Notes under the pieces: generated by a model
What the model saw: only the letters and a program-made list of their open reading frames with translations
The model's database searches: none
What the model was told of the DNA's origin: nothing
Shown here: positions 6,776 through 26,760 of the stretch, piece after piece
How the letters are laid out: each line of letters starts with the position of its first letter
How positions within the stretch are numbered: the first letter of the stretch is position 1
Translations under genes and position numbers: made by a program
NCBI GenBank assembly: GCA_964513645.1
Contig: CAZENF010000001.1
Coordinates: 200,022-264,021 of the forward strand
Length of the DNA stretch: 64,000 nt
Origin: an uncultured Candidatus Saccharibacteria bacterium
GTDB taxonomy: Bacteria > Patescibacteriota > Minisyncoccia > 2-02-FULL-40-12 > GWA2-44-9
Reading direction: 5' to 3'

Positions 6776-7378
6776 ATGCACCCGAGATACCAGCTTGGCC
6801 AGACCACTGAAGAACTGGAAGGCAAGATAGAAGTTTATGATACAACCCTGCCGGGAGTAAAAAAGATCAGAAGAAAAATTACCCATGACCACCGCGGACA
6901 TTACGGCGAGCTCTACAGTAAAAAGATCTACTTTGCCAACGGAGTCACGGTTGATTTTACCGAAGGCGAGCAGGACTGTTCCTGTTCCCGGAAAAATACA
7001 CTCCGCGGATTACACGGTGATTCAAGGACCTGGAAATTAATAACCTGCCTTTTTGGCAGATTTCATCTGGTAGTTCTGAACTACAACCCTGCTTCTGCCC
7101 TCTTCGGACGTTGGGAAGGATTCGATATGTCGGCCGAGGAAGGCTGGCAAATCCTCATCCCACCACGTCACTGCAACGGTCACCTTATCCTTTCGGATAT
7201 CGCACTTTTTCATTATAATCAGTCCGAATATTATTCGGGGCCCGAACTCCAGAACGTAATAAAATGGGACGATCCGAGATTTAACATTGACTGGCCGATC
7301 GAGAACAAATCAAAACTTCTACTTTCCCCCCGCGACAGCCAAGGCGCTTCCTATTCAGACCTTTCCGCCAAAAAATAA
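6776..7378 (+). CDS. RmlC-like cupin: nucleotide-sugar 3,5-epimerase (dTDP-4-dehydrorhamnose 3,5-epimerase family)
   Basis: 200 aa; RGLHGD...KLITCLFGRFHLVVLN...FGRWEGFDMSAEEGWQILIPPRHCNGHLILSD...HYNQSEYYSGPE follows the RmlC pattern (RGLH, KLV.V, FG.W, IP.G.AHGF, Y). Confidence 0.65.
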   Translation: MHPRYQLGQTTEELEGKIEVYDTTLPGVKKIRRKITHDHRGHYGELYSKKIYFANGVTVDFTEGEQDCSCSRKNTLRGLHGDSRTWKLITCLFGRFHLVVLNYNPASALFGRWEGFDMSAEEGWQILIPPRHCNGHLILSDIALFHYNQSEYYSGPELQNVIKWDDPRFNIDWPIENKSKLLLSPRDSQGASYSDLSAKK

Positions 7379-7408: not shown

Positions 7409-7906
7409 CTAACCGCTCGTTTTTATCTTATGGATTATTTTGGTGGTTGAAATAGAATCGAAACCCGGCGGACAAACCCGCTTTGAAATAATGAATTTTA
7501 CATCATATTTTTCGGCAATTTTTTTACGATAAGGGATATCGAAGGCATCTTCATTGATAACATAAACATCCGGCTTCAATCTTTTAAAATTAGGTTCGAG
7601 ATGGGACAAAAGATTTTCATAGTTCGGCAGTTGACTCAAAAAAGTATAATCAACAACCTTAAGCGAATCTATCATTTTAAGTCTGGTGTCATTATTGAGA
7701 ATCGGGCGGGTTTTTCCTTTATATTTCCGGATATCTTTCTCCGCTCCGACACCCACAACTAAAACATCCCCCCGGCTTTTAGAATCTTCCAAGAACAGTA
7801 CATGTCCGGCATGGGTCAGGTCAAATGTCCCGTCGCAATATACTATCTTTTTGTCGGAATTCTGTTTTCTAAGCTGCGAAAATTTTGTTGGTGTTATAAT
7901 AGCCAT
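7409..7906 (-). CDS. Stand-alone cytidylyltransferase-like nucleotidyltransferase (RfaE domain II / TagD-like)
   Basis: 165 aa; KKIVYCDGTFDLTHAGHVLFLE carries the (H/T)xGH nucleotidyltransferase motif. Paralog of 22147..22626. Confidence 0.75.
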   Translation of the reverse strand: MAIITPTKFSQLRKQNSDKKIVYCDGTFDLTHAGHVLFLEDSKSRGDVLVVGVGAEKDIRKYKGKTRPILNNDTRLKMIDSLKVVDYTFLSQLPNYENLLSHLEPNFKRLKPDVYVINEDAFDIPYRKKIAEKYDVKFIISKRVCPPGFDSISTTKIIHKIKTSG

Positions 7907-7996
7907 TTTTCATATCATAACATTTTTTTTATTCTTGACAATAAGCGATAAATAAGCGATGATTTGCCATCAATGTTCTTTAAAATAAGGAGTAAA

Positions 7997-8572
7997 GTGG
8001 CTATCCAGATCCCCAAGAAGATCGGTAAGGAAAAGGTTGTCGGCCAGGTTTACGGCAAATCTCTTATCAGCCAGAACTATATCATGCCCCAGACCGGTCG
8101 AATAGAAGAATATGGAAAATTCAGAGGCAAACACCTTTCAGCTTTTATTCTTCCTGTCACCGAAGACAATATGATTGTTGCTATCAGACAATACCGGATG
8201 GGACCGGATGAAATAGTCCTTGAACTACCCGGCGGAAATATCAAACCGGACGAACCACCTGATATGGGAGCACGAAGAGAACTTCAGGAAGAAACCGGCT
8301 ATTTGGCCGGCACCATGGTATCTTTGTCGGGATGCAAGAAGGTATGCCTCGACCCGGCAAGTTCAGATATATATTTTTATCCTTTTCTGGCCTTGAACTG
8401 CAAGTACACCGACAGAAGGAATCTTGATGTGAACGAAGACATCGAGATAGTCCTAAAGTCATGGCTGGAATGGTTGGATGCCGTTTACAAGATCAGCTCT
8501 AACAGTTCCTACTCCATGCTGACAACCCTGCTCGCACTGCCCCACGTCCAGAAATTGGAAGCGTTCCGATGA
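7997..8572 (+). CDS. NUDIX hydrolase
   Basis: Nudix box GARRELQEETGY. The ORF is open from 7964, but AAGGAG (7987-7992) followed by an in-frame GTG at 7997 is the more likely start. Confidence 0.75.
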   Translation: MAIQIPKKIGKEKVVGQVYGKSLISQNYIMPQTGRIEEYGKFRGKHLSAFILPVTEDNMIVAIRQYRMGPDEIVLELPGGNIKPDEPPDMGARRELQEETGYLAGTMVSLSGCKKVCLDPASSDIYFYPFLALNCKYTDRRNLDVNEDIEIVLKSWLEWLDAVYKISSNSSYSMLTTLLALPHVQKLEAFR

Positions 8573-9534
8573 TAACCACGGAAATTTCACTTGAACTTTA
8601 CGGACGGATGTATCGGATCCGTAAATCCGAAGAAAAGATCATCGAAGAATATTTTAACGATGCCATGAAAACTCCAATGCATATGTCGATGGGTTCCGAA
8701 GCGATCGCAGCCGGTGTCTGCACCGCCTTAGACGACGCTGCCCAGATCTGGGGAACTTATCGGAGTCACGCGACATATCTTGCTCGGACCAAAGACGTGA
8801 ACGGTTTTTTCACGGAACTTTACGGCAAGGTTACTGGACCGGGAGGAGGCAAAGCAGGTTCGATGCATTTAGCCGACCCGGAACAAGGTTTGGTTATGGC
8901 TTCGGCTGTGGTTGCGACAAACATCTCACCGGCCTTAGGCGCCGCTTTTGCCAACAAAATTCTCAAAAATCATGATATCGCTGTTACCTTTTTTGGTGAC
9001 GGCGCCGTTGATGAAGGTGTTTTCTGGGAAAGCATCAATCTCGCTTCTGTCTTGAGTTTGCCAGTCCTGTTCGTCTACGAAGACAACGGTCTGGCTATTC
9101 ATACCTCGGCCAAAAGCCGGCATGGTTATGACAATATCGGAAATCTGATAAAACAATATGCCAACTGGCATTATCTCGAATACGGTGGAACAGACGTTGA
9201 AGAAATATTTCAATTGACCGCAAATGCTTATTTCGGCCAATTGATGCGCGGACCGGTTTTCTTGTCACTTAAATACTACCGCTATCTTGAACATGTCGGT
9301 GTCAATGAAGATTTTAAGGCCGGTTATCGAAGCCGCGAAGAATTTGAAAAGTGGCAAAAAATTGACCCTCTGACCGTTCAAAAGAACCGATTGACCGACC
9401 TTGGTCTTGCCAAAGAGGTTTCACGATTGGAGACAGAGATATTGAATCAGATAGAAGAGGCCGTTACCTATGCAAAAAGCAGCCCTTATCCCGAACCCGG
9501 AGCTTTGTACGAAGGAGTGTACGATGACGAATAA
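8569..9534 (+). CDS. TPP-dependent 2-oxoacid dehydrogenase E1 component, alpha subunit (PDH/acetoin-DH E1-alpha-like)
   Basis: 321 aa; TPP-binding GDGAVDEGVFWESINLA...LPVLFVYEDNGLAI. ATGA overlap with the upstream stop. Confidence 0.8.
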   Translation: MITTEISLELYGRMYRIRKSEEKIIEEYFNDAMKTPMHMSMGSEAIAAGVCTALDDAAQIWGTYRSHATYLARTKDVNGFFTELYGKVTGPGGGKAGSMHLADPEQGLVMASAVVATNISPALGAAFANKILKNHDIAVTFFGDGAVDEGVFWESINLASVLSLPVLFVYEDNGLAIHTSAKSRHGYDNIGNLIKQYANWHYLEYGGTDVEEIFQLTANAYFGQLMRGPVFLSLKYYRYLEHVGVNEDFKAGYRSREEFEKWQKIDPLTVQKNRLTDLGLAKEVSRLETEILNQIEEAVTYAKSSPYPEPGALYEGVYDDE

Positions 9535-10573
9535 CAGAGTTATCTCCTATGAAAAAGCCCTGAACGAAGCCATCAGTCAAGAAATGGCGGCTGATGAAAG
9601 AGTTTTTGTATACGGCCTCGATGTTGACGACCACAAACGGATATTCGGAACAACCGTAGGTTTGGTGCAAAAATTCGGTCCCGAAAGATGTTTCAGCACT
9701 CCCTTGTCTGAAGAGTCTCTGATGGGATTAGGCATCGGTGCCGCAGCTTCGGGCTTAAGACCGATAAACCTACACATCCGGATAGAGTTTTTGCTTTTGG
9801 CCCTGAATCAACTTATAAATATCGGCTCATCCCTCCGTTACGGAAGTAACGGAAAACTTTCAACTCCGATGGTTATAATCGGTATTATCGGCCGAGGCTG
9901 GGGACAAGGTTTCCAGCATTCAAAAAGCCTTCAGTCATTTTTTGCCCATATTCCGGGATTAAAAGTGATAATGCCCACTACCCCTTACGATATAAAAGGC
10001 ATGATGACATCGGCGATACAGGACAACAACATCGTCGTTTGTCTCCTTCACCGCTGGCTTTACTGGATAGAAGGCCATGTTCCGGAAACACAGTACAAAG
10101 TTCCGATAGGCATGAGCCGTATTCTGCGCGAAGGTTCCGACATAACCATTGTCGCTACATCCTGGATGAACATCGAAGCACATGATGCGGCCAATGTCCT
10201 GGCCAAAAGAAATGTCAGCGTCGAGATTATCGACGCACGGACAATTTCGCCTCTTGATTACAGCATGATAGTTCATTCGGTCAACCAGACCGGCCGGTGC
10301 ATCATCGCAGACTATGACTGGCTCAACTGCGGCTTCAGCGCCGAGGTTACAGCCAGAGTTTCAGAGCAATGCTTCGGTAAGCTCAAACTTCCGGTCGCCC
10401 GGATAGGATTTGCCGAGACACCCTGCCCGACGACCAGACCCCTTGAGAACATGTTCTATCCTGACGCCAAATCGATAATCAGAAAAGCCGAAAGAATGCT
10501 CGGTCTTTCTCCTGCCGATCTGTCCGAAGAGAAATTCCACACCTGGGAAAACAAATTCAAAGGACCTTTTTAA
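9524..10573 (+). CDS. TPP-dependent 2-oxoacid dehydrogenase E1 component, beta subunit (transketolase-like pyrimidine-binding and C-terminal domains)
   Basis: MTNNRVISYEKALNEAISQEMAADERVFVYG...TPLSEESLMGLGIGAAASGLRPI... The ORF is open from 9470, but the ATG at 9524 overlaps the alpha stop (ATGACGAATAA) and fits the canonical E1-beta N-terminus. Confidence 0.8.
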   Translation: MTNNRVISYEKALNEAISQEMAADERVFVYGLDVDDHKRIFGTTVGLVQKFGPERCFSTPLSEESLMGLGIGAAASGLRPINLHIRIEFLLLALNQLINIGSSLRYGSNGKLSTPMVIIGIIGRGWGQGFQHSKSLQSFFAHIPGLKVIMPTTPYDIKGMMTSAIQDNNIVVCLLHRWLYWIEGHVPETQYKVPIGMSRILREGSDITIVATSWMNIEAHDAANVLAKRNVSVEIIDARTISPLDYSMIVHSVNQTGRCIIADYDWLNCGFSAEVTARVSEQCFGKLKLPVARIGFAETPCPTTRPLENMFYPDAKSIIRKAERMLGLSPADLSEEKFHTWENKFKGPF

Positions 10574-12484: not shown

Positions 12485-13660
12485 GTGAACCATCCTTTCA
12501 AGTATCCCCTTGCTTCTGACACAATAGATGACGCTAACCTTGAAGAACTAATTTCCTGGTTCAAAACAAAACCCCAGCTGACCATGGGTGAAGTGACGAA
12601 AAAATACGAGAAAGTATGGTCTGAATGGGTTGGCAGAAGATCCGTTTTTGTTAATTCCGGTTCATCCGCTAATTTAGCGATGTATTCGGTCTTGGATTGC
12701 TCAAGCCAGCTGATGAACAAGAAAGTCATCGTTCCAAGCAATGGCTGGGCTACGACCATTGATCCCGCGATCCAGCTTGGATTTCAACCTTTGATGTGCG
12801 AAGCTGATCCTGACACATTCGGTCTCGACCTCGACCATCTCGAAGAATTGCTTGAAGAACACCGGCCGGCTACGGTTATGCTCGTTCATGCGCTTGGCGT
12901 TCCCCATAAAATGGATGAACTAATGGCGCTTAAAGAAAAATATGAATTCATCCTTCTGGAAGACGCCTGTGCTTCGGTCGGTTCAGCTTACAAAGGCAAG
13001 CGGGTGGGAACTTTCGGAGATATGTCGAGCTTTTCGACCTATTTCGGCCACCAATCCTCAAGCGTCGAAGGCGGCTTTATTTTTACCGACAACAAAGAGT
13101 TCTATAACATCCTCCGAATGATAAGAAGCCACGGCTGGGCTAAAGACCTCGATGAAGAAACCTACAACAACCATTTCAGCAAATACAACATCGACCCCGC
13201 TCATCGGCCTTTTGCATTTTTTTACCCGGGATATAACATCCGACCGACAGATATTCAGGCAAAGATAGGTCTTGGGCAATTTGAAAAATTCGAATGGGTG
13301 AGAAAGAACCGCATCCGGAATCATGAACTCTATAAAACCCTGCTCCGAAATGATTTCGGCGTTCAAAAGTATTCATCCGATGAAGTTGAGGTTTGCAGCA
13401 TCAGTTTTGCGATCTTGGCCAAAGATCCCGAAGAACGGGATAAGGTTGTGCATGCCCTGAATAACAACAGTATCGAGACCAGACTTTATTCGGCGGCCAA
13501 TCTTGGCCTGCACCCTTTCTGGTATGACAATTTCGGAAAATTCCTGGCACCAAACGCAACTCGGTTATACAGCTGCGGCTTGTTCCTGCCGAACCATCCT
13601 GATCTTGAAAGGTCAGACATAGAATTCATTTCAAAAGTTGCACTGGGGGCAAAAAAATGA
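12485..13660 (+). CDS. DegT/DnrJ/EryC1 family enzyme with His replacing the PLP-lysine: PMP-dependent sugar 3-dehydratase-like (ColD/E1 (RfbH/DdhC) type)
   Basis: 391 aa. SFSTYFGHQSSSVEGG aligns gap-free with FAFYPNKQMTTGEGG (45620 ORF) and [16 protein letters not shown] (56839 ORF), placing H where both paralogs have the Schiff-base K. N-terminus LASDTIDDANLEEL..TMGEVTKKYEKVWSEW.G...V.VNSGSSANL resembles RfbH/ColD. AGGGAG Shine-Dalgarno before the GTG start. Confidence 0.65.
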   Translation: MNHPFKYPLASDTIDDANLEELISWFKTKPQLTMGEVTKKYEKVWSEWVGRRSVFVNSGSSANLAMYSVLDCSSQLMNKKVIVPSNGWATTIDPAIQLGFQPLMCEADPDTFGLDLDHLEELLEEHRPATVMLVHALGVPHKMDELMALKEKYEFILLEDACASVGSAYKGKRVGTFGDMSSFSTYFGHQSSSVEGGFIFTDNKEFYNILRMIRSHGWAKDLDEETYNNHFSKYNIDPAHRPFAFFYPGYNIRPTDIQAKIGLGQFEKFEWVRKNRIRNHELYKTLLRNDFGVQKYSSDEVEVCSISFAILAKDPEERDKVVHALNNNSIETRLYSAANLGLHPFWYDNFGKFLAPNATRLYSCGLFLPNHPDLERSDIEFISKVALGAKK

Positions 13661-14607
13661 GAAAGATCAAGGTCCTGATCACCGGAGGCGCGGGGTATAT
13701 AGGTTCAGTATTGGTTCCTAAATTGTTAGAAACCGGCATTTACAAAATAGCGGTCATCGACAACTTCATGTACCAAGAACCTTCCCTGGTCAATGTTTCC
13801 GACAATCCCGATCTGACCATTCTAAATTCCGATATCAGGGATTATAAACTGGTTAATTTTATAGCCCCAAAATCGGACTATATTTTACCATTGGCCTGCC
13901 TGACCGGTGCACCCATTTGCGACCGTTATCCCAATCAGGCCAGAGAAGTAATAGTGGACGCATTAAAAAATATGATAAGTTCGCTAAAACCCAACCAGAG
14001 ACTGATCTATCCTACAACCAACAGCGGCTACGGGATCGGTAGCGACGATATCTATTGCGATGAGAATAGTCCGCTTAACCCGATATCACATTACGGCCGT
14101 TTGAAAGTCGAAGCCGAAAAAATGATATTGGAAAGAAAAGGAATCGCTCTTAGACTGGCCACCGTTTTCGGTGTCAGCCCGAGAATGAGATTAGACCTCC
14201 TTGTGAACGACATGACCTTCGAGGCGGTTAAGAAGGGTCATATAAAACTTTATGAACCGCATTTCAAAAGAAACTTCATCCACGTCAGAGATATTGCCGA
14301 CGCTTTTGTTTTTTGTCTGAACAATTTTGAAAAAATGCAAGGACAAGTATACAACGTCGGCCTCAGCGAAGCGAATATAAGCAAAATGGACCTGTGCCTG
14401 ATGATAAAAGAGCGGGTACCGAAACTCGAAATAACAACCGATGATTCAAAGAAGGATCCGGACCAGCGCAACTATATTGTCAATAACGAAAAGATCGAAG
14501 CTCTCGGTTTTAAAGCGAAGGTTTCCCTTAAAACCGGAATTCAGGAACTGATAAAATATTACGAGATGCTCGATTATTCCCAAAGACAAAGATTTTCGAA
14601 CATTTAA
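13657..14607 (+). CDS. NAD-dependent epimerase/dehydratase (extended SDR)
   Basis: 316 aa; VLITGGAGYIGS Rossmann motif. Paralog of 34051..34980 (shared VIDNxM, SPRxRLDLxxND, TFIHVxD). Confidence 0.8.
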   Translation: MRKIKVLITGGAGYIGSVLVPKLLETGIYKIAVIDNFMYQEPSLVNVSDNPDLTILNSDIRDYKLVNFIAPKSDYILPLACLTGAPICDRYPNQAREVIVDALKNMISSLKPNQRLIYPTTNSGYGIGSDDIYCDENSPLNPISHYGRLKVEAEKMILERKGIALRLATVFGVSPRMRLDLLVNDMTFEAVKKGHIKLYEPHFKRNFIHVRDIADAFVFCLNNFEKMQGQVYNVGLSEANISKMDLCLMIKERVPKLEITTDDSKKDPDQRNYIVNNEKIEALGFKAKVSLKTGIQELIKYYEMLDYSQRQRFSNI

Positions 14608-17222: not shown

Positions 17223-17247
17223 AACGCCCAAAAGGGCGTTTTTATTT
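17222..17247 (+). terminator. Rho-independent terminator
   Basis: AACGCCC-AAAA-GGGCGTT followed by TTTTATTT. Confidence 0.65.
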
Positions 17248-17306
17248 GACTTTTTTTAAAAAAAATCTATTATTATTGACGGAACTTTCACAACAAAAGG
17301 CGGGTA

Positions 17307-19471: not shown

Positions 19472-19600
19472 GATCCGTCATTTAAAAGATGCTGACCCAT
19501 ATTACAGCGCCTTAGGAACTAAATCAAATCATGTTTGACGAACCAATTTTTTGATAGTATAATCTGTCCAGTTATTTTTACAAAAAGGATATATCAATTC

Positions 19601-20407
19601 ATGACCGAACTTCTTAAACTTGAAGAACGAGCAAGGCGAGTAAGAAAAGATATATTAGATATGGCTTATAATGCGAGTGATTCACATATCGGCTGCGCAA
19701 TGTCCGTGGTTGAAATACTTGTCGGCCTCTATTTTAAAGTTATGAATATAAACCCTAATGATCCACGCTGGCAAGAACGTGACCGCTTCGTCTTAAGCAA
19801 AGGCCATGTCGCATCGGCATTATATTCGGTTTTGTCCGAACGGGAATTTTTCCCCAAGAACTTTTTGTCTGAATTCGCCAGGAATGGAAGCTTTTTATCA
19901 AGCCATGTTGACGGTTCCGCTCTTCCCGGAGTTGAGACCTCGGGCGGTTCCGGAGGTCATGGTCTGTCGCTTGGCGCAGGGATGGCCCTTGCTGCCAAGA
20001 TGGATAATTCAAAACGCCGGATATTTGTTCTGTGCGGAGACGGAGAACTTCAGGAAGGTTCGGTCTGGGAAGCGGCGATGTTCGCAGCTTCAAGGAAATT
20101 GAACAACTTAACCCTTGTCATAGATCGAAACCATTATCAAACCTGGGATGATGTTGACAATGTTGTTTCTCCTGAACCTTTGGATAAAAAATTCGACGCT
20201 TTTGGATGGGAAACCGAAAGAGTTGAAGGTCACAGATTTGTCGCCCTGTGTCATGTGCTTAGCAGATATACCGATAGACCGCACGCTGTTATCGCTGAAA
20301 CGGTCAAAGGTAAAGGAATATCATTCATGGAAAACAAAGGAGAATGGCACAATGGCGTCCTCACCAAAGAACAATATGAAGCCGCGGTAAAGGAGGTATC
20401 CTACTAA
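19601..20407 (+). CDS. Transketolase, N-terminal (TPP-binding) subunit of a split transketolase
   Basis: GHVASALYSVL...GSGGHGLSLGAGMALA...VLCGDGELQEGSVWEA. The ORF is open from 19535, but ATG 19601 preceded by AAGGA is the likely start. Confidence 0.8.
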   Translation: MTELLKLEERARRVRKDILDMAYNASDSHIGCAMSVVEILVGLYFKVMNINPNDPRWQERDRFVLSKGHVASALYSVLSEREFFPKNFLSEFARNGSFLSSHVDGSALPGVETSGGSGGHGLSLGAGMALAAKMDNSKRRIFVLCGDGELQEGSVWEAAMFAASRKLNNLTLVIDRNHYQTWDDVDNVVSPEPLDKKFDAFGWETERVEGHRFVALCHVLSRYTDRPHAVIAETVKGKGISFMENKGEWHNGVLTKEQYEAAVKEVSY

Positions 20408-21315
20408 TGCGAAACGCGGTTATCGAAGCTCTATATCAGGAGGCCGTAAAAGATCCCCGGATCTGTTTTTTTACCGGCGATTTCCAGCATGTCAGAGAAA
20501 GAGATTTCATCGCCATGGGACAAAGATACCAGAACGCCGGAATGGCCGAACAGAATATAATCGGTCTCGCTGCAGGTGCAGCATTAAGCGGAAAAAAAGT
20601 TTTCGTTTATTCCATAATCCCCTTCATAACTCTCCGTTGTCTTGAACAGATAAAAATGGATGTTTGCGTCCACAATGTAGACGTAACTATCATCGGCGGC
20701 GGAGCGGGTTTTACTTACGGTACCTGCGGTCCCAGCCATCTTGCAATCGAAGATATTGCAGTAATGCGTGCCTTGCCCAACATGAAAATAGTCTGCCCTT
20801 CCGGCCCGCGGGAAGCGGTCCAGCTTTTGAGTCAGGTCATCAAAGCCAGTGGCCCGACATATTTACGCCTGAACAAAAGAGGAGAAAAGGATCTACACGA
20901 TCATCTCCCGATAATGGGACATGGGGTGGTTATCCGTCCCGGTTCTGACATAACAATAATCGCAACCGGCACCATTGTGGCAGAGGCGCTTGAAGCCGCA
21001 ACAATACTTTCCGCTTCAGGTATTTCAACCGAAGTGGTCAATATGCACACGATAAAACCGATTGACAAAAACCTTATCCTTAAGAGGGTATACACAAAGA
21101 GACTGATCTGTACCCTTGAGGAACACAGCGTCATCGGCGGCTTGGGCAGCGCCGTATCTGAAATTATCGCCGGAAAAAATATCAGAGCGGGTTTTATGTC
21201 ATTTGGCGTAAAGGATAAGTGGCCAGATTTTGTTGGAGACCAGAAATATCTCCGAAAAGGAACAGGTCTCAACGGCGAATCAATCGCATCAGCCATCAAA
21301 GAAAGTTACGTGTAA
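20407..21315 (+). CDS. Transketolase, C-terminal (pyrimidine-binding and C-terminal domain) subunit
   Basis: 302 aa; FFTGDFQHV...GMAEQNIIGLAAGAALSGKKVFVYSIIPF. Start overlaps the upstream stop (TAATG). Confidence 0.8.
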   Translation: MRNAVIEALYQEAVKDPRICFFTGDFQHVRERDFIAMGQRYQNAGMAEQNIIGLAAGAALSGKKVFVYSIIPFITLRCLEQIKMDVCVHNVDVTIIGGGAGFTYGTCGPSHLAIEDIAVMRALPNMKIVCPSGPREAVQLLSQVIKASGPTYLRLNKRGEKDLHDHLPIMGHGVVIRPGSDITIIATGTIVAEALEAATILSASGISTEVVNMHTIKPIDKNLILKRVYTKRLICTLEEHSVIGGLGSAVSEIIAGKNIRAGFMSFGVKDKWPDFVGDQKYLRKGTGLNGESIASAIKESYV

Positions 21316-22155
21316 ATGAACATTCCTCTTCTTTTCCAGAACTCTGCTCCGGAAGAAAGAGAATATTTTACAAAGCTCGCACATTCTCATCAAAAAGAAC
21401 TCAAGCTTCATGAGAGCTACGGACTTTGGGAAAAAGAACCTTCGGGAAAAACCTGGACCAATGTTACGGAACATTGCCTGATAGAAGCCGCCCGTTCAAA
21501 AGTATTATCGAGCTGGCTCAATTTGCCTCAAGACATACGTGATTCAATGGAATCAGCCGCAGTTGTGCATGATTTTTACAAAAAAAGAGAAATAGAACTG
21601 GTGCATGAAGATATAAAAGCCGGAAGAACCGGAAAAGACGGCACCCTCAAAGCCTCCGACGAATCTGAAAAAATCATGAGTAGCTTGGGATTTGACGATT
21701 TCGTCGTCTCACTGGTTGAATGCGTCGGGGCGACCCAGATGAATCTTCATCGGATGAAAAGAATGCTTGACCTTAAATTCAGGAGTGATGAAGACCTGGC
21801 CCATCTGGCCATTCACTACATTGATGATTACACCATTCATAGTTGCTGGGCAAAACCGGCGGAAATAAAAGAAGGAAAGAAAAAAAATGATGCCGACAGA
21901 AGGAACGAAAAAAATATTCAGAATCCTGACTATAAAAAAATGGGGGCTGAAAGTACAAAGCTCAACCAAAATTCACCGTATTTCAAAGGTATGAGCATGT
22001 ATGAATCAGCTGTGTATGTCGACCATCTTATAGAAAATGAATTTGCCGGGATAATCAGAAATCACGGAATAACTATCGGTGACCCGATAGATCTTCCGTG
22101 GCTTGTAGACAATTACTTAAGAAATAAAATAAATAAAAAACGCGACCTACATTAG
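21316..22155 (+). CDS. HD-domain phosphohydrolase-like protein
   Basis: 279 aa; H (TEHCL) ... HD (AAVVHDFYK) at HD-domain spacing. Confidence 0.45.
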   Translation: MNIPLLFQNSAPEEREYFTKLAHSHQKELKLHESYGLWEKEPSGKTWTNVTEHCLIEAARSKVLSSWLNLPQDIRDSMESAAVVHDFYKKREIELVHEDIKAGRTGKDGTLKASDESEKIMSSLGFDDFVVSLVECVGATQMNLHRMKRMLDLKFRSDEDLAHLAIHYIDDYTIHSCWAKPAEIKEGKKKNDADRRNEKNIQNPDYKKMGAESTKLNQNSPYFKGMSMYESAVYVDHLIENEFAGIIRNHGITIGDPIDLPWLVDNYLRNKINKKRDLH

Positions 22156-22626
22156 GCCGCGTATTTTTTTTATGATCGCACTCGTTGATATCGGAAATTC
22201 TCGATGGAAAATTTCTAAAGGCACATCCCACCTCTTTGAAAGGCCCCGCCGTTTTTCTATGTCACCATCATCATTAACAGCCCAAACATCCGGTTTAAAA
22301 TATAAGAATATCTCTTCGATTGGAAGGAGCCAGTGCTCACCTTTTTTAGAAGGATTTGAAAAGAACGAATAATCTACCGCTCTCATGGCATCAACCACCC
22401 TTAAGCGCAGATCCTGACCCAGGATAGGGAGCTGAGGGTTTTTATTATTTCTGATATCCTCATCTGTGCCTACGGCAACAACAAGGATATCGCCTAAACT
22501 TTTACAATTCTCAAGAAAAATGACATGGCCGGCATGAAATAAGTCAAAAGTCCCGGAACAAAAAACTATTTTTTTATCCGGACGCTTTTCCCTGAGTTTT
22601 GAAAGATCGTCATAACAAATGACCAT
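22147..22626 (-). CDS. Stand-alone cytidylyltransferase-like nucleotidyltransferase (second paralog)
   Basis: 159 aa; KKIVFCSGTFDLFHAGHVIFLE, collinear with 7409..7906. Confidence 0.75.
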   Translation of the reverse strand: MVICYDDLSKLREKRPDKKIVFCSGTFDLFHAGHVIFLENCKSLGDILVVAVGTDEDIRNNKNPQLPILGQDLRLRVVDAMRAVDYSFFSNPSKKGEHWLLPIEEIFLYFKPDVWAVNDDGDIEKRRGLSKRWDVPLEIFHREFPISTSAIIKKIRGLM

Positions 22627-22691: not shown

Positions 22692-22719
22692 TTGACATAC
22701 CTGTCAAAAAATATATAAT
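22692..22719 (+). promoter_or_regulatory. Sigma70-type promoter TTGACA-N16-TATAAT, with the palindrome TTGACATACCTGTCAA overlapping the -35
   Basis: TTGACA 22692-22697, TATAAT 22714-22719, about 30 bp upstream of the 22750 SDR gene. The inverted repeat TTGACA/TGTCAA spans 22692-22707. Confidence 0.5.
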
Positions 22720-22749: not shown

Positions 22750-23550
22750 ATGAACTTAGGCCTTAAAGGCAAGACAGCCCTTGTTACCGGCTCAAGCCAA
22801 GGCATCGGCAAAGCCTGCGCCCTAGCACTGGCCCGTGAAGGATGCAATGTTATTTTGTGTGCCAGAGACATGGATAAATTAAAAAGAACTCAGAAACAAA
22901 TTTCCAATTTGTACCCAACCGTCAACGTAAGCTACGACCATGTTGATGTAACTGACCGTGAAAGGATAAAATATTTCATCAGCCATATCGGAGCTCTTGA
23001 TATCCTGGTCAACAATGCCGGCGGCTCTTCGGATAAAGAAGTTAAACTTTTTGACATCCCCGAAGAGGAATGGATACATATGTTCAAGCTTAATACCTTG
23101 AGCGCGCTTTGGTTCACCGAATTCTGTGTTCCCCTTCTTGAAAGATCGTCCCAGCCGAGAGTAATCAATATCGGCACCAAGGCATCGCATGAACCTGGTT
23201 ATACCAATGCACCTTACGCCACGGCTAAATCAGGTCTTGATTACCTGAACAAGAGAATGTCTAACGAACTTGCCCCTAAAGGTATCCCAGTTAATCTTAT
23301 CGGGCCACATATGCTTACCTCTGAAACCTGGGAAAGAAAACTTGAACAGAAAGCCAAAGATAACAATGTTTCGGTCGATGAAGCGCGGGCGATGACCCTC
23401 AAAGAAATACTCAAGCAAATACCGATGGGCCGGCAAGGCACGACAGAAGATGTCGCCAACCTTGTCGTGTTCCTTGCCTCCGCCCAGGCAAACTTCATTA
23501 CCGGTGGTTATTTCCCTCTCGACGGGGGAAATTCCCGGTATCGTTACTAA
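22750..23550 (+). CDS. Short-chain dehydrogenase/reductase (classical SDR)
   Basis: 266 aa; TGSSQGIGKA, NNAG, and catalytic YATAKSGL (YxxxK). Confidence 0.85.
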   Translation: MNLGLKGKTALVTGSSQGIGKACALALAREGCNVILCARDMDKLKRTQKQISNLYPTVNVSYDHVDVTDRERIKYFISHIGALDILVNNAGGSSDKEVKLFDIPEEEWIHMFKLNTLSALWFTEFCVPLLERSSQPRVINIGTKASHEPGYTNAPYATAKSGLDYLNKRMSNELAPKGIPVNLIGPHMLTSETWERKLEQKAKDNNVSVDEARAMTLKEILKQIPMGRQGTTEDVANLVVFLASAQANFITGGYFPLDGGNSRYRY

Positions 23551-24609: not shown

Positions 24610-26760
24610 ATGCCTGACCCTTTCATTCCTTTAAGAATGATCAATCAATACGGCCCTCCAAGGGTCATACCCAAGCCAAGGGAAAAAATAAAGATAGCCC
24701 AGATCCAGCTGAATACAAGCTTTTCGAACCAATACTATTTCCCGCTTGCGGCCGGAATGATCCAGGCCTATGCGAAAAAACATTTTACCTATCCTGAAGA
24801 CCTCGAATTTACCGAAATCATATTCAAATTCCCTCAAAGCAGAAAAGAGATCGATGAAATATCCGAAAGACTTAGTGATTGCCACATCGTGGGCGTCGGA
24901 AGCTATACCTGGGGTGCGGAACATTCATTAGCTTTCGGCCGGGCTTACAAAAAAAGGAATCCCGGCGGGATACTTGTTTTCGGCGGACCCCAAGTCCCCG
25001 ACAGCAAAAAACAATTTCGCCACAACCGGACCAAAGAACTTACTGAAGAAGAAAAGGGTCGGCGGAGAATAAATTTTACTCCCGACTACCATCAAGCTCA
25101 TCCTGAAATCGATATTTGCGTCCATGGCGAAGGCGAAAGAGTATTTACCAAAATTCTTGAACAATTTGCTGTAGACGGATGCTACGATAAAATCTCCGTC
25201 CCCTCGGCAAGTTATATCGACAGAAATGGTGAATTCCATTACAACGATAAGCTTGAGAGGATGAACGATAAAGAATTATCGGACACACCTTCTCCTTTTA
25301 CGACTGGGGTTTTCGACAAACTTATCGAACAAAACCGTGATTTGGTTTTCATAACAATGTACGAAACCAATCGCGGCTGTCCATTTTCCTGCACATATTG
25401 TGACTGGGGCGGAGCAACAGAAGACAAGGTCAGCAAATTTCCAATGCCTCAAGTTTACAATGATATTATGTGGTGTTCGGAACAAAAGGTACCGTACTGG
25501 TTCATCTGTGATGCCAATTGGGGCATCCTCGAAAGAGATGAGCAAATTTCAGAATTTTTTGCCGAAGCAAAATCAAGATTCGGTTATCCTGAAGCGGTTT
25601 CGACCCAAAATTCAAAAAACCCTAAAGCTCATACTATCCGAGCATTAAAAGCCCTCGAAAGAGCCGGGCTCAACAAAGCTACGGTCATGTCCCAGCAGTC
25701 TCTTAACCCGGCAACACTTAAAGCGGTGCGCAGAGACAACATGAAACTTGAACAGTATTACCAGATACAGAAAGAACTGGCCGCTCAAGGTATTTTTACC
25801 ATGACCGACCTTATCCCCGGCATGCCCGAAGAAACCTATGAAACCTTCTTCGATGCCATCGCGACTCTTATCACGAACGGACAACACAATCGGATCCAAT
25901 TCAACATTCTTTCAATCCTCTGCAACACCGAAATGGCCGATTGGGAATATCAGCAACGTTACGGTTTCAAAACCGTAAAAACCAAAATTATAAATGCCCA
26001 TGGAAGCAGGAACGAGCGTGATACCGGGATAGACGAGCTCCAGGAATTTGTTATCGGAACGAACACAATGCCGCCCGAAGACTGGGTCAAAACCTATACT
26101 CTTTGCTGGACTGTGAATTTGTTCTATTTCAGCAAACTCTTCCAAATCCCCATTATCATCCTTCACGAAGTCTATGGCTTCAGCTACAAAGAGATCCTGG
26201 AACTTTTCAGCGCCAAAATACTTAAGAAGTACGGAGATTTTCCGGTCCTATCAGAGATTGAGCAATTCTTTTCCCAGAGAGGTCGGATGATACAAAACGG
26301 CCAGGATGGCGAATTTATTTATTCAGAAGATTGGCTGAAAATTTACTGGATGCCTGACGAGCATATTCTGATAAAAATATGCCGGGAAAATAAACTGAAC
26401 GAGCTTTATAAAGAAGCTTTTGAACTTATGAAAAATCTGGCTGTAACAAAGCCGGAAATACCTTTGGAGATTCTGAAAGAATCGACGGAGCTTAACCGTC
26501 AGCTTTTCAAGATACCGTTTCAGTCAGAAGATCTGACCGTTAAACTTTCCTGGAACATCTGGGAAATCTACCGATCGGTTCTGCTCGGAAAGACAGCGGA
26601 ACTGAAACACCAGTCTAAAGCATTAATTATCGACCGGACCTCCCAAACTTGGTCGACCTGGCAGGATTGGTATCAAAAAATGGTCTGGTATTGTAATCGG
26701 CGCGGAGCATATCTGTACGGTAGCAAGAATCCGCACCCTGAAATCGAAGGACATCATTGA
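24610..26760 (+). CDS. Cobalamin-binding (class B) radical SAM enzyme with C-terminal extension (paralog of 15147)
   Basis: 716 aa; YETNRGCPFSCTYCDWGG and HGEGERV. The C-terminal ...WYCNRRGAYLYGSKN... is collinear with ...WYGSKQSAYLYGNKS... in the 15147 ORF. Confidence 0.8.
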   Translation: MPDPFIPLRMINQYGPPRVIPKPREKIKIAQIQLNTSFSNQYYFPLAAGMIQAYAKKHFTYPEDLEFTEIIFKFPQSRKEIDEISERLSDCHIVGVGSYTWGAEHSLAFGRAYKKRNPGGILVFGGPQVPDSKKQFRHNRTKELTEEEKGRRRINFTPDYHQAHPEIDICVHGEGERVFTKILEQFAVDGCYDKISVPSASYIDRNGEFHYNDKLERMNDKELSDTPSPFTTGVFDKLIEQNRDLVFITMYETNRGCPFSCTYCDWGGATEDKVSKFPMPQVYNDIMWCSEQKVPYWFICDANWGILERDEQISEFFAEAKSRFGYPEAVSTQNSKNPKAHTIRALKALERAGLNKATVMSQQSLNPATLKAVRRDNMKLEQYYQIQKELAAQGIFTMTDLIPGMPEETYETFFDAIATLITNGQHNRIQFNILSILCNTEMADWEYQQRYGFKTVKTKIINAHGSRNERDTGIDELQEFVIGTNTMPPEDWVKTYTLCWTVNLFYFSKLFQIPIIILHEVYGFSYKEILELFSAKILKKYGDFPVLSEIEQFFSQRGRMIQNGQDGEFIYSEDWLKIYWMPDEHILIKICRENKLNELYKEAFELMKNLAVTKPEIPLEILKESTELNRQLFKIPFQSEDLTVKLSWNIWEIYRSVLLGKTAELKHQSKALIIDRTSQTWSTWQDWYQKMVWYCNRRGAYLYGSKNPHPEIEGHH

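What the first reader, a model, noticed from the sequence alone, without database searches (positions are those of the whole stretch)
19601..21315. Split transketolase (N- and C-terminal subunits) as a second TPP-dependent C2-transfer module in the same island
Two adjacent genes with a TAATG overlap encode the TPP-binding half and the pyrimidine/C-terminal half of a transketolase. They lie about 10 kb from the E1 alpha/beta pair, inside the same glycan-tailoring region of methyltransferase, HD-domain protein, SDR, AKR and B12 radical SAM genes. Split transketolases recur in polysaccharide loci but their substrates are largely uncharacterised. Two independent TPP-dependent ketol or C2-transfer systems in one glycan locus is unusual. 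It suggests synthesis of higher-carbon or C-branched sugars, possibly operating on the heptose or nonulosonic intermediates encoded nearby.
Basis: partly seen in the sequence, partly recalled or inferred. Interest (0 to 1): 0.5.

Follow-up and report, generated by a model that had tools for sequence, protein, structure and literature searches.

The report
Glycan-locus split transketolase-like enzyme pair
Two overlapping genes encode a two-subunit, transketolase-like thiamine enzyme that lacks the usual sugar-phosphate-binding residues and belongs to an uncharacterised family found in cell-surface sugar gene clusters, where it most likely adds a two-carbon unit to an activated sugar.

Summary
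tktN (19601-20407) and tktC (20407-21315) overlap by one base (TAATG). An HD-fold phosphohydrolase gene follows directly at 21316.

It is not an ordinary transketolase:
- The ThDP/Mg site and all catalytic histidines are kept.
- The C subunit has lost the canonical acceptor and phosphate residues: E. coli His461 to Gly, Asp469 to Cys, Arg520 to Lys.
- The ThDP loop GSLGQG reads GSGGHG.
- The C subunit is only 35% identical to the solved split transketolase (6YAJ).

The closest relatives (59-70% identity) are all in Patescibacteria (CPR). They always sit beside AKR and SDR genes, and usually beside RmlC-like, HldC-like and B12 radical SAM genes.

More distant family members occupy the position that YerE holds in yersiniose pathways. 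They follow rfbF-rfbG-rfbH in Methylovirgula, Spirochaetia and Leptospirales, and one is fused to an extended SDR in Paenibacillus.

Best reading (about 0.5): a ThDP carboligase that installs a C2 unit on a nucleotide-activated keto sugar, which the SDR/AKR then reduces.

The pairing with an E1 alpha/beta module is not unique. It recurs in three other loci, and two loci carry two TK-like pairs. Function is inferred only. Whether another transketolase exists in this genome could not be tested.

The parts
19535..19563 (+). Sigma-70-like promoter match TTGACG-17-TATAAT, 38 nt upstream of the tktN start codon
   Evidence: 11 of 12 consensus positions. This is a consensus match only, not evidence of function.
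19601..20407 (+). tktN: ThDP/Mg-binding (PP-domain) subunit of a split transketolase-like enzyme, 268 aa
   Evidence: Pfam Transketolase_N 8e-35. It is 47-50% identical to the N chain of 6YAK. It keeps His29, His69, His102 and His250 (human His37/77/110/258) and the GDGE...N metal site. The clade signature is DSHIGC, GGSGGHG, FQTW, WHNG.
20407..21315 (+). tktC: pyrimidine-binding plus C-terminal domain subunit, 302 aa, with a non-canonical substrate pocket
   Evidence: Pfam Transket_pyr plus Transketolase_C. It is 35% identical to 6YAJ. It keeps Arg2, Glu48 and His111. Gly99 replaces the His461 equivalent, Cys107 replaces Asp469, and Lys157 replaces Arg520.
21316..22155 (+). Divergent HD-superfamily phosphohydrolase, 279 aa, third gene of the tktN-tktC unit. 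It may act as the sugar-bisphosphate phosphatase of the activation pathway (inferred).
22140..22162 (.). GC-rich hairpin with T-runs on both sides, at the convergent junction of the HD gene and the HldC-like gene. Probably a bidirectional terminator.
   Evidence: The scan flagged the minus strand. On the plus strand the stem has one mismatch and is followed by T8.
22147..22626 (-). HldC/TagD-like small nucleotidyltransferase, 159 aa, convergent with the TK unit
   Evidence: Pfam CTP_transf_like. PDB hits are ethanolamine-phosphate cytidylyltransferase, 5X9Q, 3GLV and TagD. It is a 46% paralogue of the gene at 7409-7906. It is adjacent to the TK pair in L007, L008 and L011.
22692..22719 (+). 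Perfect TTGACA-16-TATAAT promoter match ahead of the SDR-AKR-radical SAM genes
   Evidence: 12 of 12. Consensus match only.
22750..23550 (+). Classical SDR ketoreductase, 266 aa, a constant partner of this TK clade
   Evidence: Pfam adh_short 4e-42. It is present in 6 of 7 other clade loci; the seventh is cut by a contig end.
23560..24516 (+). Aldo-keto reductase, 318 aa, a constant partner of this TK clade
   Evidence: Pfam Aldo_ket_red 5e-51. It is present in 7 of 7 other clade loci. It is 41% identical to the AKR in the Azospirillum B510 cassette.
24610..26760 (+). B12-binding radical SAM enzyme, 716 aa, with KedN5-like C-methyltransferase similarity
   Evidence: Pfam and NCBIfam. It is a 38% paralogue of the gene at 15147-17222. 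It is present in 4 of 7 clade loci and in the Azospirillum Az39 cassette.
8569..10573 (+). Stand-alone E1 alpha / E1 beta pair, the second ThDP module. No E2 or E3 gene lies in the window.
   Evidence: Pfam E1_dh 8e-45, and Transket_pyr plus Transketolase_C. NCBIfam PDH E1 alpha/beta scores are below the cut-offs. The listed E1 beta ORF start (9470) overlaps E1 alpha by 65 nt, so the true start is probably near 9531.
965..1537 (+). GmhA (sedoheptulose-7-phosphate isomerase)
   Evidence: NCBIfam TIGR00441 at 212.8 bits, above the 209.45 cut-off.
5715..6698 (+). HddA-like GHMP sugar kinase
   Evidence: Pfam GHMP_kinases. The best NCBIfam match is HddA at 151 bits, below the 600 cut-off. It is 57% identical to the kinase in the Azospirillum B510 TK cassette.
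6776..7378 (+). RmlC-like 3,5-epimerase (cupin)
   Evidence: Pfam dTDP_sugar_isom 3e-35. It is present in 5 of 7 clade loci.
7409..7906 (-). Second HldC-like nucleotidyltransferase, 165 aa
   Evidence: The best NCBIfam match is rfaE domain II at 90 bits, below the cut-off. Pfam CTP_transf_like.
7964..8572 (+). NUDIX hydrolase
   Evidence: Pfam NUDIX. NUDIX genes lie near the TK pair in L002, L003, L008, L010 and the Azospirillum B510 cassette.
13657..14607 (+). Extended SDR (NDP-sugar epimerase/dehydratase type), 316 aa
   Evidence: Pfam Epimerase. It is 50% identical to the oxidoreductase of the Azospirillum B510 cassette. Homologues lie within 10 kb of the TK pair in 53 of 73 distant loci.

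Best explanation
tktN and tktC encode a heteromeric, ThDP-dependent carboligase of the transketolase fold, dedicated to making an unusual cell-surface sugar. It is not a pentose-phosphate transketolase.

Proposed mechanism (inferred):
1. ThDP is activated by the conserved Glu48 of the C subunit.
2. A C2 unit is loaded. It is most likely dihydroxyethyl-ThDP from a 2-ketose phosphate or hydroxypyruvate, because the histidines that hold the donor C1-OH are kept.
3. The C2 unit is added to the carbonyl of a nucleotide-activated keto sugar. That sugar would be produced by the neighbouring extended-SDR or dehydratase and RmlC-like enzymes from an NDP-heptose or NDP-hexose.
4. The resulting hydroxyacetyl branch or extension is reduced by the always-adjacent SDR and/or AKR.
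5. It may then be C-methylated by the B12 radical SAM enzyme.

The co-transcribed HD phosphohydrolase and the convergent HldC-like transferase would belong to the activation steps of the same sugar: GmhA, then HddA-like kinase, then phosphatase, then nucleotidyltransferase.

Shown here: gene structure, fold and family membership, active-site composition, and conserved gene neighbourhoods. Inferred: donor, acceptor, site of attack, and the roles of SDR, AKR and HD.
For: **1. Catalytic core kept, substrate pocket changed.**
- His29, His69, His102 and His250, the GDGE/N site, Glu48 and His111 are conserved.
- The equivalents of E. coli His461, Asp469 and Arg520 are Gly99, Cys107 and Lys157.
- Leu-Gly-Gln of the ThDP loop reads Gly-Gly-His.
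- Several changes go from a large to a small residue.

**2. Family-wide pattern.** Gly99 is found in 117 of the 120 best homologues. Position 107 varies by subclade (C/A/L/Y/M), as expected for differing acceptors.

**3. Constant partners in this clade.** All seven other clade loci carry an AKR and six carry an SDR. Five have an RmlC-like gene, four have a B12 radical SAM gene, and three have the HD plus HldC-like pair.

**4. Family members occupy the YerE slot.**
- Methylovirgula plasmid: rfbF-rfbG-oxidoreductase-rfbH-TKN-TKC-GT2-GtrA.
- Spirochaetia and Leptospirales MAGs: rfbF-rfbG-rfbH-GtrA-SDR-TKN-TKC-GT2-YfhO.
- Paenibacillus: rfbF-rfbG-MT-[extended SDR::TKN fusion]-TKC.

**5. Two parallel modules in the window.** It holds paralogous pairs of radical SAM (38%), HldC-like (46%) and extended SDR (40%) genes. 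One set lies near E1 alpha/beta, an enzyme type known to C-branch keto sugars (PMC12247030). The other lies near the TK-like pair.

**6. Precedents.**
- Rif15a/b is a biochemically shown two-subunit TK encoded by overlapping genes. Its dihydroxyethyl-ThDP attacks a ketone (PMC6002545).
- Split TKs are proposed to add a hydroxyacetyl branch to a keto sugar in miharamycin and amipurimycin (PMC12247030).
Against: - No biochemical data exist for any member of this family.
- The rfbFGH-linked and SDR-fused examples are only 38-40% identical to the window's C subunit, so their role may not transfer to this clade.
- A catabolic Listeria split TK-like pair (isomerase-TKN-TKC-glycerol kinase-PTS) also lacks the His461 and Asp469 equivalents. 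The residue losses therefore show non-PPP substrates, not branching specifically.
- Arg2 and Lys157/Arg158 are kept. They would fit a sugar monophosphate as well as an NDP.
- The immediate neighbours (HD phosphohydrolase, HldC-like transferase) and the GmhA/HldC/HldD-type genes near most distant relatives fit an early, pre-activation role equally well.
- No keto-sugar-forming enzyme has been specifically tied to the pair in this window.
- The residue equivalences to E. coli, yeast and human TK use numbering from my own knowledge applied to the alignments.
- The Ser385 equivalent is ambiguous (His28 or Val29), depending on the aligner.
Confidence: 0.5

Rival explanations
1. Early-step ketose-phosphate synthase. 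The TK-like enzyme builds an unusual heptulose or octulose (phosphate) from a non-canonical aldehyde acceptor. The product is then isomerised by the GmhA-like SIS enzyme, phosphorylated by the HddA-like kinase, dephosphorylated by the HD protein and activated by the HldC-like transferase. The C2 unit would become C1-C2 of a higher-carbon sugar before nucleotide activation.
For: - The HD phosphohydrolase is co-transcribed with the pair, and the HldC-like gene abuts it.
- GmhA and the HddA-like kinase lie in the same locus.
- Among 73 distant relatives, 42 have an HldC-like gene, 26 have a SIS gene and 53 have an extended SDR within 10 kb. In L061 a fused HldE-like gene, GmhA-like gene, epimerase and kinase lie directly upstream.
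- The GHMP kinase is 57% identical between the window and the Azospirillum cassette.
- Loss of the Asp469 equivalent fits an acceptor without a 2-OH. E. coli TK D469 variants are known to accept non-hydroxylated aldehydes (own knowledge).
Against: - The rfbF-rfbG-rfbH-TK and SDR::TKN arrangements contain no isomerase or kinase, and start from CDP-glucose.
- L003 and L009 have the pair with SDR and AKR but no GmhA, kinase or HldC within 10 kb.
- The constant SDR and AKR partners have no obvious role in this route.
Confidence: 0.2
2. CDP-alditol route. The pair makes a ketose phosphate, the SDR or AKR reduces it to an alditol phosphate, and the TagD-like transferase activates it with CTP. A glycerophosphotransferase-like enzyme then adds it to the glycan as a teichoic-acid-type substituent.
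For: - The small transferases resemble glycerol-3-phosphate and ethanolamine-phosphate cytidylyltransferases.
- SDR and AKR are constant partners.
- The AKR's nearest solved relatives act on free sugars, such as L-galactose dehydrogenase.
- A weak Glyphos_transf match lies at 35084-36178.
Against: - The common ketose phosphates are already available from central metabolism.
- The non-canonical pocket argues against ordinary sugar-phosphate substrates.
- The RmlC-like, extended SDR and B12 radical SAM partners are typical of NDP-sugar tailoring, not of alditol phosphate synthesis.
- The NCBIfam best match of the paralogous transferase is heptose-1-phosphate adenylyltransferase.
Confidence: 0.1
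3. Ordinary housekeeping split transketolase, perhaps the organism's only one. It would happen to lie in the glycan locus or supply sedoheptulose-7-phosphate for the GmhA heptose pathway.
For: - Split transketolases are the normal form in many anaerobes and archaea (own knowledge).
- The N subunit is about 50% identical to canonical and AptA-type N subunits.
- GmhA, which uses sedoheptulose-7-phosphate, is in the window.
- The rest of the genome could not be inspected.
Against: - The C subunit is only 35% identical to 6YAJ.
- It lacks the His461, Asp469 and Arg520 equivalents that bind sugar phosphates and the acceptor 2-OH.
- The Brennerbacteria locus carries two different TK-like pairs side by side.
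- Relatives lie on accessory plasmids, in IS-flanked cassettes.
- NCBIfam transketolase scores are far below the cut-offs: 242 and 165 bits against 488.
Confidence: 0.07
4. Glycolyl or acyl donor system. Dihydroxyethyl-ThDP is oxidised and handed to a carrier to give a glycolyl group that decorates an amino sugar, as in the QncN/QncL and NapB/NapD systems.
For: - DegT aminotransferases and a nonulosonic acid pathway with amino groups to acylate lie in the window and in L003.
- The precedent for split ThDP enzymes feeding glycolyl units is cited in PMC6002545, reference 36.
Against: - No lipoyl, E2 or acyl-carrier protein gene was detected among the annotated genes of the window or the clade loci.
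- The conserved partners are reductases, not acyltransferases.
Confidence: 0.05

Closest known systems
Split-gene transketolase of Carboxydothermus hydrogenoformans (PDB 6YAK/6YAJ)
   Same: Both have the two-subunit architecture: an N subunit with the PP domain, and a C subunit with the Pyr and C-terminal domains. This is the best PDB match for both subunits (3e-73 and 2.5e-52). Both have the ThDP/Mg motif, the catalytic His residues and the activating Glu.
   Different: The C subunit is only 35% identical. 6YAJ has the canonical THAG...GEDGASHQ...RLGRS. The window has GGAG...GTCGPSHL...RLNKR, so the His461, Asp469 and Arg520 equivalents are replaced. 6YAK has GSLGQG where the window has GSGGHG. 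The genomic context here is glycan biosynthesis, not central metabolism.
Rif15a/Rif15b, two-subunit transketolase of rifamycin biosynthesis (PMC6002545)
   Same: Both are encoded by two overlapping genes in a biosynthetic cluster. In Rif15, a ThDP-bound dihydroxyethyl group from a 2-ketose attacks a ketone carbonyl rather than an aldose aldehyde.
   Different: The Rif15 acceptor is a naphthoquinone, and the product rearranges to an ester through C-O bond formation. The context is a polyketide cluster, not a glycan locus.
Split-gene TKs proposed for the hydroxyacetyl branch of miharamycin and amipurimycin, plus 13 Streptomyces BGC homologues (review PMC12247030)
   Same: Both are split TK-type ThDP enzymes in a sugar-modifying cluster, proposed to act on a keto sugar. 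None has been characterised in vitro.
   Different: Those are actinomycete secondary-metabolite enzymes acting on nucleoside sugars. This one is in a probable Patescibacteria cell-surface glycan locus.
YerE (yersiniose A) and E1 alpha/beta-type (alpha-KADH2) sugar C-branching enzymes (PMC12247030; PMC4753412)
   Same: The proposed job is the same: ThDP-dependent C2 addition to an NDP-4-keto or NDP-3-keto sugar, followed by ketoreduction. TK-like relatives sit after rfbF-rfbG-rfbH, which by my recollection (not checked against a Yersinia locus) is where yerE sits in yersiniose pathways. An E1 alpha/beta pair lies in the same window.
   Different: The ThDP superfamilies differ: YerE is decarboxylase-type and E1 is alpha-KADH2. 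Those enzymes use pyruvate and give an acetyl branch. A TK-type enzyme would be expected to give a hydroxyacetyl branch from a ketose or hydroxypyruvate.
Catabolic split TK-like enzymes (apulose-4-phosphate transketolase AptAB; the Listeria isomerase-TK-glycerol kinase-PTS operon)
   Same: All are two-subunit TK-like enzymes. The N subunit is about 50% identical to a protein named apulose-4-phosphate transketolase subunit A (P0078). The Listeria C subunit also lacks the His461 and Asp469 equivalents.
   Different: Those sit in sugar-uptake and degradation operons. The window's clade sits only in biosynthetic glycan loci and has its own active-site signature.

Membership tests
Transketolase, EC 2.2.1.1 (pentose-phosphate enzyme) | ThDP/Mg2+ binding PP domain with the GDG...N motif | tested here: met
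   The CGDGELQEG...IDRN motif aligns to the human and 6YAK motifs. Pfam Transketolase_N 8e-35.
Transketolase, EC 2.2.1.1 (pentose-phosphate enzyme) | Catalytic histidines (E. coli His26, His66, His100, His261, His473) and the cofactor-activating Glu411 | tested here: met
   His29, His69, His102 and His250 in TktN, and Glu48 and His111 in TktC, align to these positions. The numbering equivalence is from my own knowledge.
Transketolase, EC 2.2.1.1 (pentose-phosphate enzyme) | Sugar-phosphate binding set Arg358 / Ser385 / His461 / Arg520 | tested here: not met
   Arg2 is kept. The His461 equivalent is Gly99 (Gly in 117 of 120 homologues). The Arg520 equivalent is Lys157. The Ser385 equivalent is His28 or Val29, depending on the alignment.
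Transketolase, EC 2.2.1.1 (pentose-phosphate enzyme) | Asp469, which binds the acceptor 2-OH and sets D-threo specificity | tested here: not met
   The aligned residue is Cys107. The family shows C, A, L, Y or M at this position.
Transketolase, EC 2.2.1.1 (pentose-phosphate enzyme) | Score above the curated family cut-off | tested here: not met
   The best NCBIfam transketolase equivalog scores 241.7 bits (N) and 164.7 bits (C) against a 488-bit cut-off for the full-length model. Half-length proteins would be expected to score lower, so this is weak evidence.
Transketolase, EC 2.2.1.1 (pentose-phosphate enzyme) | It is the genome's pentose-phosphate transketolase, with no other tkt gene | not testable with these tools
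   Only the 64 kb window and a 9.6 kb Logan contig are accessible. The genome is not among the GTDB representatives scanned.
Split-gene (two-subunit) transketolase-fold enzymes | Separate adjacent genes for the PP domain and for the Pyr plus C-terminal domains, translationally coupled | tested here: met
   TAATG one-base overlap. The same coupling is seen in L002 (one-base overlap) and L005 (four-base overlap).
ThDP-dependent NDP-keto-sugar C-branching enzymes (functional class: YerE, alpha-KADH2 E1 alpha/beta, proposed split TKs) | The gene is embedded in a nucleotide-sugar pathway next to keto-sugar-forming and ketoreducing enzymes | tested here: met
   The window has extended SDRs, a GMD-like dehydratase, an RmlC-like gene, an SDR and an AKR. 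AKR is in 7 of 7 and SDR in 6 of 7 clade loci.
ThDP-dependent NDP-keto-sugar C-branching enzymes (functional class: YerE, alpha-KADH2 E1 alpha/beta, proposed split TKs) | It occupies the branching-enzyme position after a defined 4-keto-sugar pathway (ddhA/B/C = rfbF/G/H) | tested here: inconclusive
   This holds for relatives at 38-40% identity: L090, L078, L082, and L087 with rfbF/G only. It does not hold for the window's own clade, where the acceptor pathway is undefined.
ThDP-dependent NDP-keto-sugar C-branching enzymes (functional class: YerE, alpha-KADH2 E1 alpha/beta, proposed split TKs) | Demonstrated C-C bond formation on an NDP-keto sugar | not testable with these tools
   This needs enzymology. 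No member of the TK type has been assayed (PMC12247030).
1-Deoxy-D-xylulose-5-phosphate synthase | A single chain with all three domains that scores above the family cut-off | tested here: not met
   There are two separate chains. TIGR00204 scores 35.5 bits (N) and 140 bits (C) against a 466-bit cut-off. DXS is only the second-best PDB relative of the C subunit.
HD-superfamily metal-dependent phosphohydrolase (for the third gene, 21316-22155) | The H...HD...D metal-binding motif and the all-helical HD fold | tested here: met

The most novel reading that the evidence does not exclude
The pair represents a large, unrecognised family of transketolase-fold carboligases. In this reading, the family is the third independent ThDP solution, besides YerE and E1 alpha/beta, for building C-branched or chain-extended sugars in cell-surface glycans. 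It would install a hydroxyacetyl or dihydroxyethyl unit on nucleotide-activated keto sugars. In this probable CPR organism it would work alongside an E1 alpha/beta module and B12 radical SAM C-methylases to make sugars of a type not yet described chemically.
Probability: 0.4. Interest if true: 0.65.

Novelty: new variant of a known kind. Interest (0 to 1): 0.5.

Why it matters
If the proposed activity is right, it would give the first enzymological handle on TK-type sugar branching. According to a 2025 review, that reaction has only been proposed, never shown.

It would also show that such enzymes are widespread in cell-envelope glycan loci. They occur in Patescibacteria, Alphaproteobacteria, Spirochaetes, Planctomycetes and others, not only in Streptomyces antibiotic clusters.

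It would predict new hydroxyacetyl- or dihydroxyethyl-branched or extended sugars on bacterial surfaces. It would also offer biocatalysts that form functionalised tertiary alcohols.

The family has members in cultured bacteria (Methylovirgula sp. HY1, Paenibacillus cellulosilyticus, Azospirillum sp. B510 and Az39). The question is therefore directly testable, even though the window's own host is probably uncultured.

Tried and rejected
- **Finding the source genome for a second transketolase.** Exact-protein look-ups returned only a 9.6 kb Logan contig. Cluster tables mention a 303,837 bp NCBI contig but give no accession. The GTDB-representative scan did not contain this genome.
- **Full-text literature searches.** Five searches found nothing useful for glycan-locus TKs: 'split transketolase'; transketolase with O-antigen; with arabinitol and capsule; with gmhA and heptose; and with subunit terms. 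My initial recollection of a pneumococcal arabinitol/TK link could not be substantiated and was dropped.
- **Pfam at E up to 5.** It gave nothing for the HD-like gene or for the conserved unknowns at 17307, 17840, 3741 and 38776.
- **Rfam.** There was no hit in the whole window, so no TPP or cobalamin riboswitch reaches gathering score.
- **Active-site losses as evidence for keto-sugar branching.** I rejected this as a specific argument after the catabolic Listeria pair showed similar losses.
- **Equivalence of the Brennerbacteria second TK pair to the window's E1 pair.** I considered that the two occupy equivalent positions. The flanking DegT and epimerase genes there are only 27-28% identical to the window's, so I did not rely on it.
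- **Taxonomic markers.** None exist in the window. Every annotated gene is glycan-related.


Full report
**1. Observation**

- tktN runs from an ATG at 19601, preceded by aaaaagga, to 20407 (268 aa).
- tktC runs from 20407, preceded by aaggagg, to 21315 (302 aa).
- The junction reads TAATG, so stop and start share one base.
- A third gene starts at 21316, immediately after the tktC stop.

Pfam gives Transketolase_N (8e-35) for the first protein. It gives Transket_pyr plus Transketolase_C (2e-26, 9e-27) for the second. Both are full length relative to homologues.

The stated neighbours are all confirmed:
- E1 alpha/beta, 9 kb upstream
- methyltransferase
- SDR
- AKR
- two B12 radical SAM genes

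Three results show the label is nevertheless right:
- Its family has 288 representative clusters.
- H53, H85-D86 and D170 are invariant across it.

**2. Transcription unit**

A near-consensus promoter match, TTGACG-17-TATAAT, lies at 19535-19563. It sits in the 130 nt gap between the divergent methyltransferase gene and tktN.

A GC-rich hairpin at 22140-22162 has T-runs on both sides. It sits where the HD gene meets the convergent HldC-like nucleotidyltransferase gene (22147-22626, minus strand).

A perfect TTGACA-16-TATAAT precedes the SDR-AKR-radical SAM genes.

So tktN-tktC-HD looks like a three-gene unit with its own signals. These are consensus matches only.

**3. It is not a canonical transketolase**

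The best solved relatives are the two chains of the Carboxydothermus hydrogenoformans split transketolase. The N subunit is 47-50% identical to 6YAK. The C subunit is only 35% identical to 6YAJ, and DXS is its next-best relative.

Conserved:
- TktN His29, His69, His102 and His250 (human His37/77/110/258)
- the GDGE...N metal site
- TktC Arg2, Glu48 and His111

Changed:

| Canonical position | Canonical residue(s) | Window residue(s) |
|---|---|---|
| E. coli His461 equivalent | His | Gly99 |
| E. coli Asp469 equivalent | Asp | Cys107 |
| Residue after the last catalytic His | Gln | Leu112 |
| E. coli Arg520 equivalent | Arg | Lys157 (followed by Arg158) |
| E. coli Phe434 equivalent | Phe | Ile70 |
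| ThDP loop in TktN | GSLGQG | GSGGHG |

The Ser385 equivalent is His28 or Val29, depending on the aligner. Residue equivalences to the E. coli, yeast and human enzymes rest on my own knowledge of their numbering, applied to the printed alignments.

Asp469 and His461 bind the acceptor 2-OH and the substrate phosphate in canonical enzymes (established knowledge). Ordinary pentose-phosphate substrates are therefore unlikely.

These features run through the family. Gly99 occurs in 117 of the 120 best C-subunit homologues. Position 107 varies by subclade.

One caution applies. A catabolic Listeria split TK-like pair shows similar losses. The losses therefore indicate non-canonical substrates in general, not any one reaction.

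**4. Relatives and neighbourhoods**

The window's subclade has C subunits at least 59% identical, with the signature FQH..GG..FYTC.THL..RNKR. It was found only in Patescibacteria and unclassified metagenome bins: Saccharibacteria, Jorgensenbacteria and Brennerbacteria.

In the seven other independent loci of this subclade, the partner counts are:

| Partner gene | Loci with it (of 7) |
|---|---|
| AKR | 7 |
| Classical SDR | 6 (the seventh contig is truncated) |
| RmlC-like epimerase | 5 |
| B12 radical SAM | 4 |
| DegT | 4 |
| HD gene plus HldC-like transferase | 3 |

A Saccharibacteria contig (L013) is syntenic with window 10.6-32 kb. Its neighbours are 58-78% identical to the window's. Its TK pair is only 50% identical, belongs to another subclade, and lacks the HD and HldC-like genes. 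This suggests cassette exchange at that position. It also suggests, as an inference only, that the window comes from a Saccharibacteria-like CPR organism.

More distant relatives (35-45% identity) occur across Alpha- and Deltaproteobacteria, Planctomycetes, Acidobacteria, Spirochaetes and archaea. They nearly always lie within 10 kb of nucleotide-sugar genes:
- extended SDR in 53 of 73 loci
- HldC-like transferase in 42 of 73
- GmhA-like SIS gene in 26 of 73

**5. Contexts that point to a reaction**

Three arrangements are informative.

*(a) After rfbF-rfbG-rfbH.*
- On a Methylovirgula plasmid the order is rfbF-rfbG-oxidoreductase-rfbH-TKN-TKC-GT2-GtrA.
- In Spirochaetia and Leptospirales MAGs it is rfbF-rfbG-rfbH-GtrA-extended SDR-TKN-TKC-GT2-YfhO.
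- rfbF/G/H make CDP-3,6-dideoxy-4-keto-hexose (with a reductase). That compound is the substrate on which YerE installs the C2 branch of yersiniose (PMC12247030).
- In these loci the TK-like pair stands where, by my recollection of the Yersinia yersiniose cluster, yerE stands.

*(b) Fusion to an extended SDR.* On a Paenibacillus plasmid the order is rfbF-rfbG-methyltransferase, then a 635-aa fusion of an extended SDR with TKN (41% identity over the TKN part), then TKC.

*(c) Portable cassettes.*
- Azospirillum plasmids carry IS-flanked cassettes.
- In strain B510 the cassette holds a GHMP kinase (57% identical to the window's), an extended SDR (50%), NUDIX, TKN, TKC and an AKR (41%).
- In strain Az39 it also holds B12 radical SAM genes.
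- These cassettes show that the module is portable and accessory.

**6. The two-module picture**

The window contains paralogous pairs:
- radical SAM 15147 / 24610 (38% identity)
- HldC-like 7409 / 22147 (46%)
- extended SDR 13657 / 34051 (40%)

One member of each pair lies near the E1 alpha/beta pair. The other lies near, or downstream of, the TK-like pair.

Stand-alone E1 alpha/beta enzymes are the established type that adds an acetyl branch to keto sugars in natural products (PMC12247030, PMC4753412). A parallel role for the TK-like pair is therefore reasonable.

The combination is not unique to this window:
- E1 alpha/beta plus a TK-like pair occurs in Yanofskybacteria (L015), Omnitrophota (L029) and Planctomycetia (L023) loci.
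- Two different TK-like pairs occur in the Brennerbacteria locus and in L015.

**7. Best explanation and rivals**

I favour a ThDP carboligase that adds a C2 unit to a nucleotide-activated keto sugar (0.5). The C2 unit is probably dihydroxyethyl, from a ketose phosphate or hydroxypyruvate. SDR/AKR reduction and perhaps radical SAM methylation would follow.

Precedents:
- Rif15a/b is a characterised two-subunit TK from overlapping genes that attacks a ketone (PMC6002545).
- Split TKs are proposed, but not shown, to branch the miharamycin and amipurimycin sugars.

The main rival (0.2) is an early role. In that model the enzyme builds an unusual ketose (phosphate) that passes through the GmhA, HddA-like kinase, HD phosphatase and HldC-like transferase steps. 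The immediate HD and HldC neighbours fit this well. The rfbFGH-linked and SDR-fused relatives, and clade loci without those genes, fit it less well.

Three further rivals are less likely:
- a CDP-alditol route (0.1)
- a housekeeping or S7P-supply role (0.07)
- a glycolyl-donor role (0.05)

**8. Limits**

- Everything about substrate and product is inferred from sequence and context.
- The informative contexts come from relatives at about 40% identity.

**9. Novelty and score**

Split TK-like genes in polysaccharide loci have long been annotated, so the sighting itself is not new.

What this analysis adds:
- The pair belongs to a large, distinct and uncharacterised family with an altered substrate pocket.
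- Its CPR subclade has a fixed AKR/SDR partnership, and often HD/HldC partners.
- Family members replace YerE in 3,6-dideoxyhexose clusters.
- Cultured hosts exist for testing.

I rate it a new variant of a known kind, with interest 0.5.

Noticed in passing
window 1-64000: Every gene annotated in the 64 kb window is glycan-related. The set includes GmhA, an ABC exporter, kinases, about ten extended SDRs, three B12 radical SAM genes, carbamoyltransferase, DegT x3, a PhyH dioxygenase, GT11/GT2/GT4/GT-C, an ATP-grasp gene and NeuA/B/C. There is no housekeeping marker. By synteny the host is probably a Saccharibacteria-like CPR organism. For a genome expected to be small, that is a very large share devoted to one glycan locus.
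   Followed up: partly
window 15147-17222 / 24610-26760; 7409-7906 / 22147-22626; 13657-14607 / 34051-34980: There are three paralogous gene pairs: B12 radical SAM at 38% identity, HldC-like transferase at 46%, and extended SDR at 40%. They suggest two parallel sugar-tailoring modules, one with E1 alpha/beta and one with the TK-like pair.
   Followed up: partly
L013 (Saccharibacteria CAYTBY010000001.1) versus window 10673-32379: The two are syntenic, with neighbours at 58-78% identity. The TK pair is only 50% identical, belongs to a different active-site subclade (YYTCCTHH), and has no HD or HldC-like genes. This looks like a cassette swap at a fixed position, reminiscent of O-antigen diversification.
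   Followed up: partly
window 17307-17879 and 17840-18814: Two overlapping ORFs (190 and 324 aa) have no family hit at all. They are nevertheless conserved at 60% and 70% identity in the syntenic Saccharibacteria locus L013, between the radical SAM and methyltransferase genes.
   Followed up: no
L087 8097-10004 (Paenibacillus cellulosilyticus plasmid NZ_CP054609.1): This is a natural fusion of an extended SDR domain with a TK N subunit (635 aa). The record annotates it only as 'SDR family oxidoreductase'. It is followed by a separate TK C subunit.
   Followed up: partly
L088 (Azospirillum sp. B510 pAB510f) and L093 (A. argentinense Az39 p5): Compact cassettes of TK-like pair, kinase, extended SDR, AKR or B12 radical SAM, methyltransferase and a large glycosyltransferase are bracketed by IS elements on plasmids. 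This suggests horizontal mobility of the module.
   Followed up: no
L015 (Candidatus Yanofskybacteria MGJF01000002.1) 9200-17700: One locus carries three ThDP modules: a TK-like pair at about 9204-10915, a second TK-like C subunit at about 13688, and E1 alpha/beta at 15587-17700.
   Followed up: no
L061 4242-9161 and many other proteobacterial loci: There is a widespread conserved cluster. It runs: fused HldC-like::PfkB kinase (domain order reversed relative to HldE), GmhA-like gene, extended SDR, an unknown 204-aa gene, an APH-like kinase, then the TK-like pair and methyltransferases. I know of no characterised pathway that matches it.
   Followed up: partly
window 9470-9534: The listed E1 beta ORF start (ATG 9470) overlaps the end of E1 alpha by 65 nt. 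The Pfam match begins at residue 25. The real start is probably near 9531, which would give a short coupled overlap like that of the TK pair.
   Followed up: no
window 37200-38765: A single 521-aa protein fuses HisF-like (His_biosynth) and HisH-like (GATase) domains. It lies next to NeuA/NeuB/NeuC-type genes. In locus L003 the two are separate genes. It is probably an amidotransferase for an acetimidoyl-type modification of a nonulosonic acid.
   Followed up: no
window 3741-5708, 31255-32379, 38776-40053: Large proteins with no family hit (655, 374 and 425 aa) recur with the ABC exporter and the TK pair in L003, L009 and L015. They may be uncharacterised glycosyltransferases or polymerases.
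   Followed up: no
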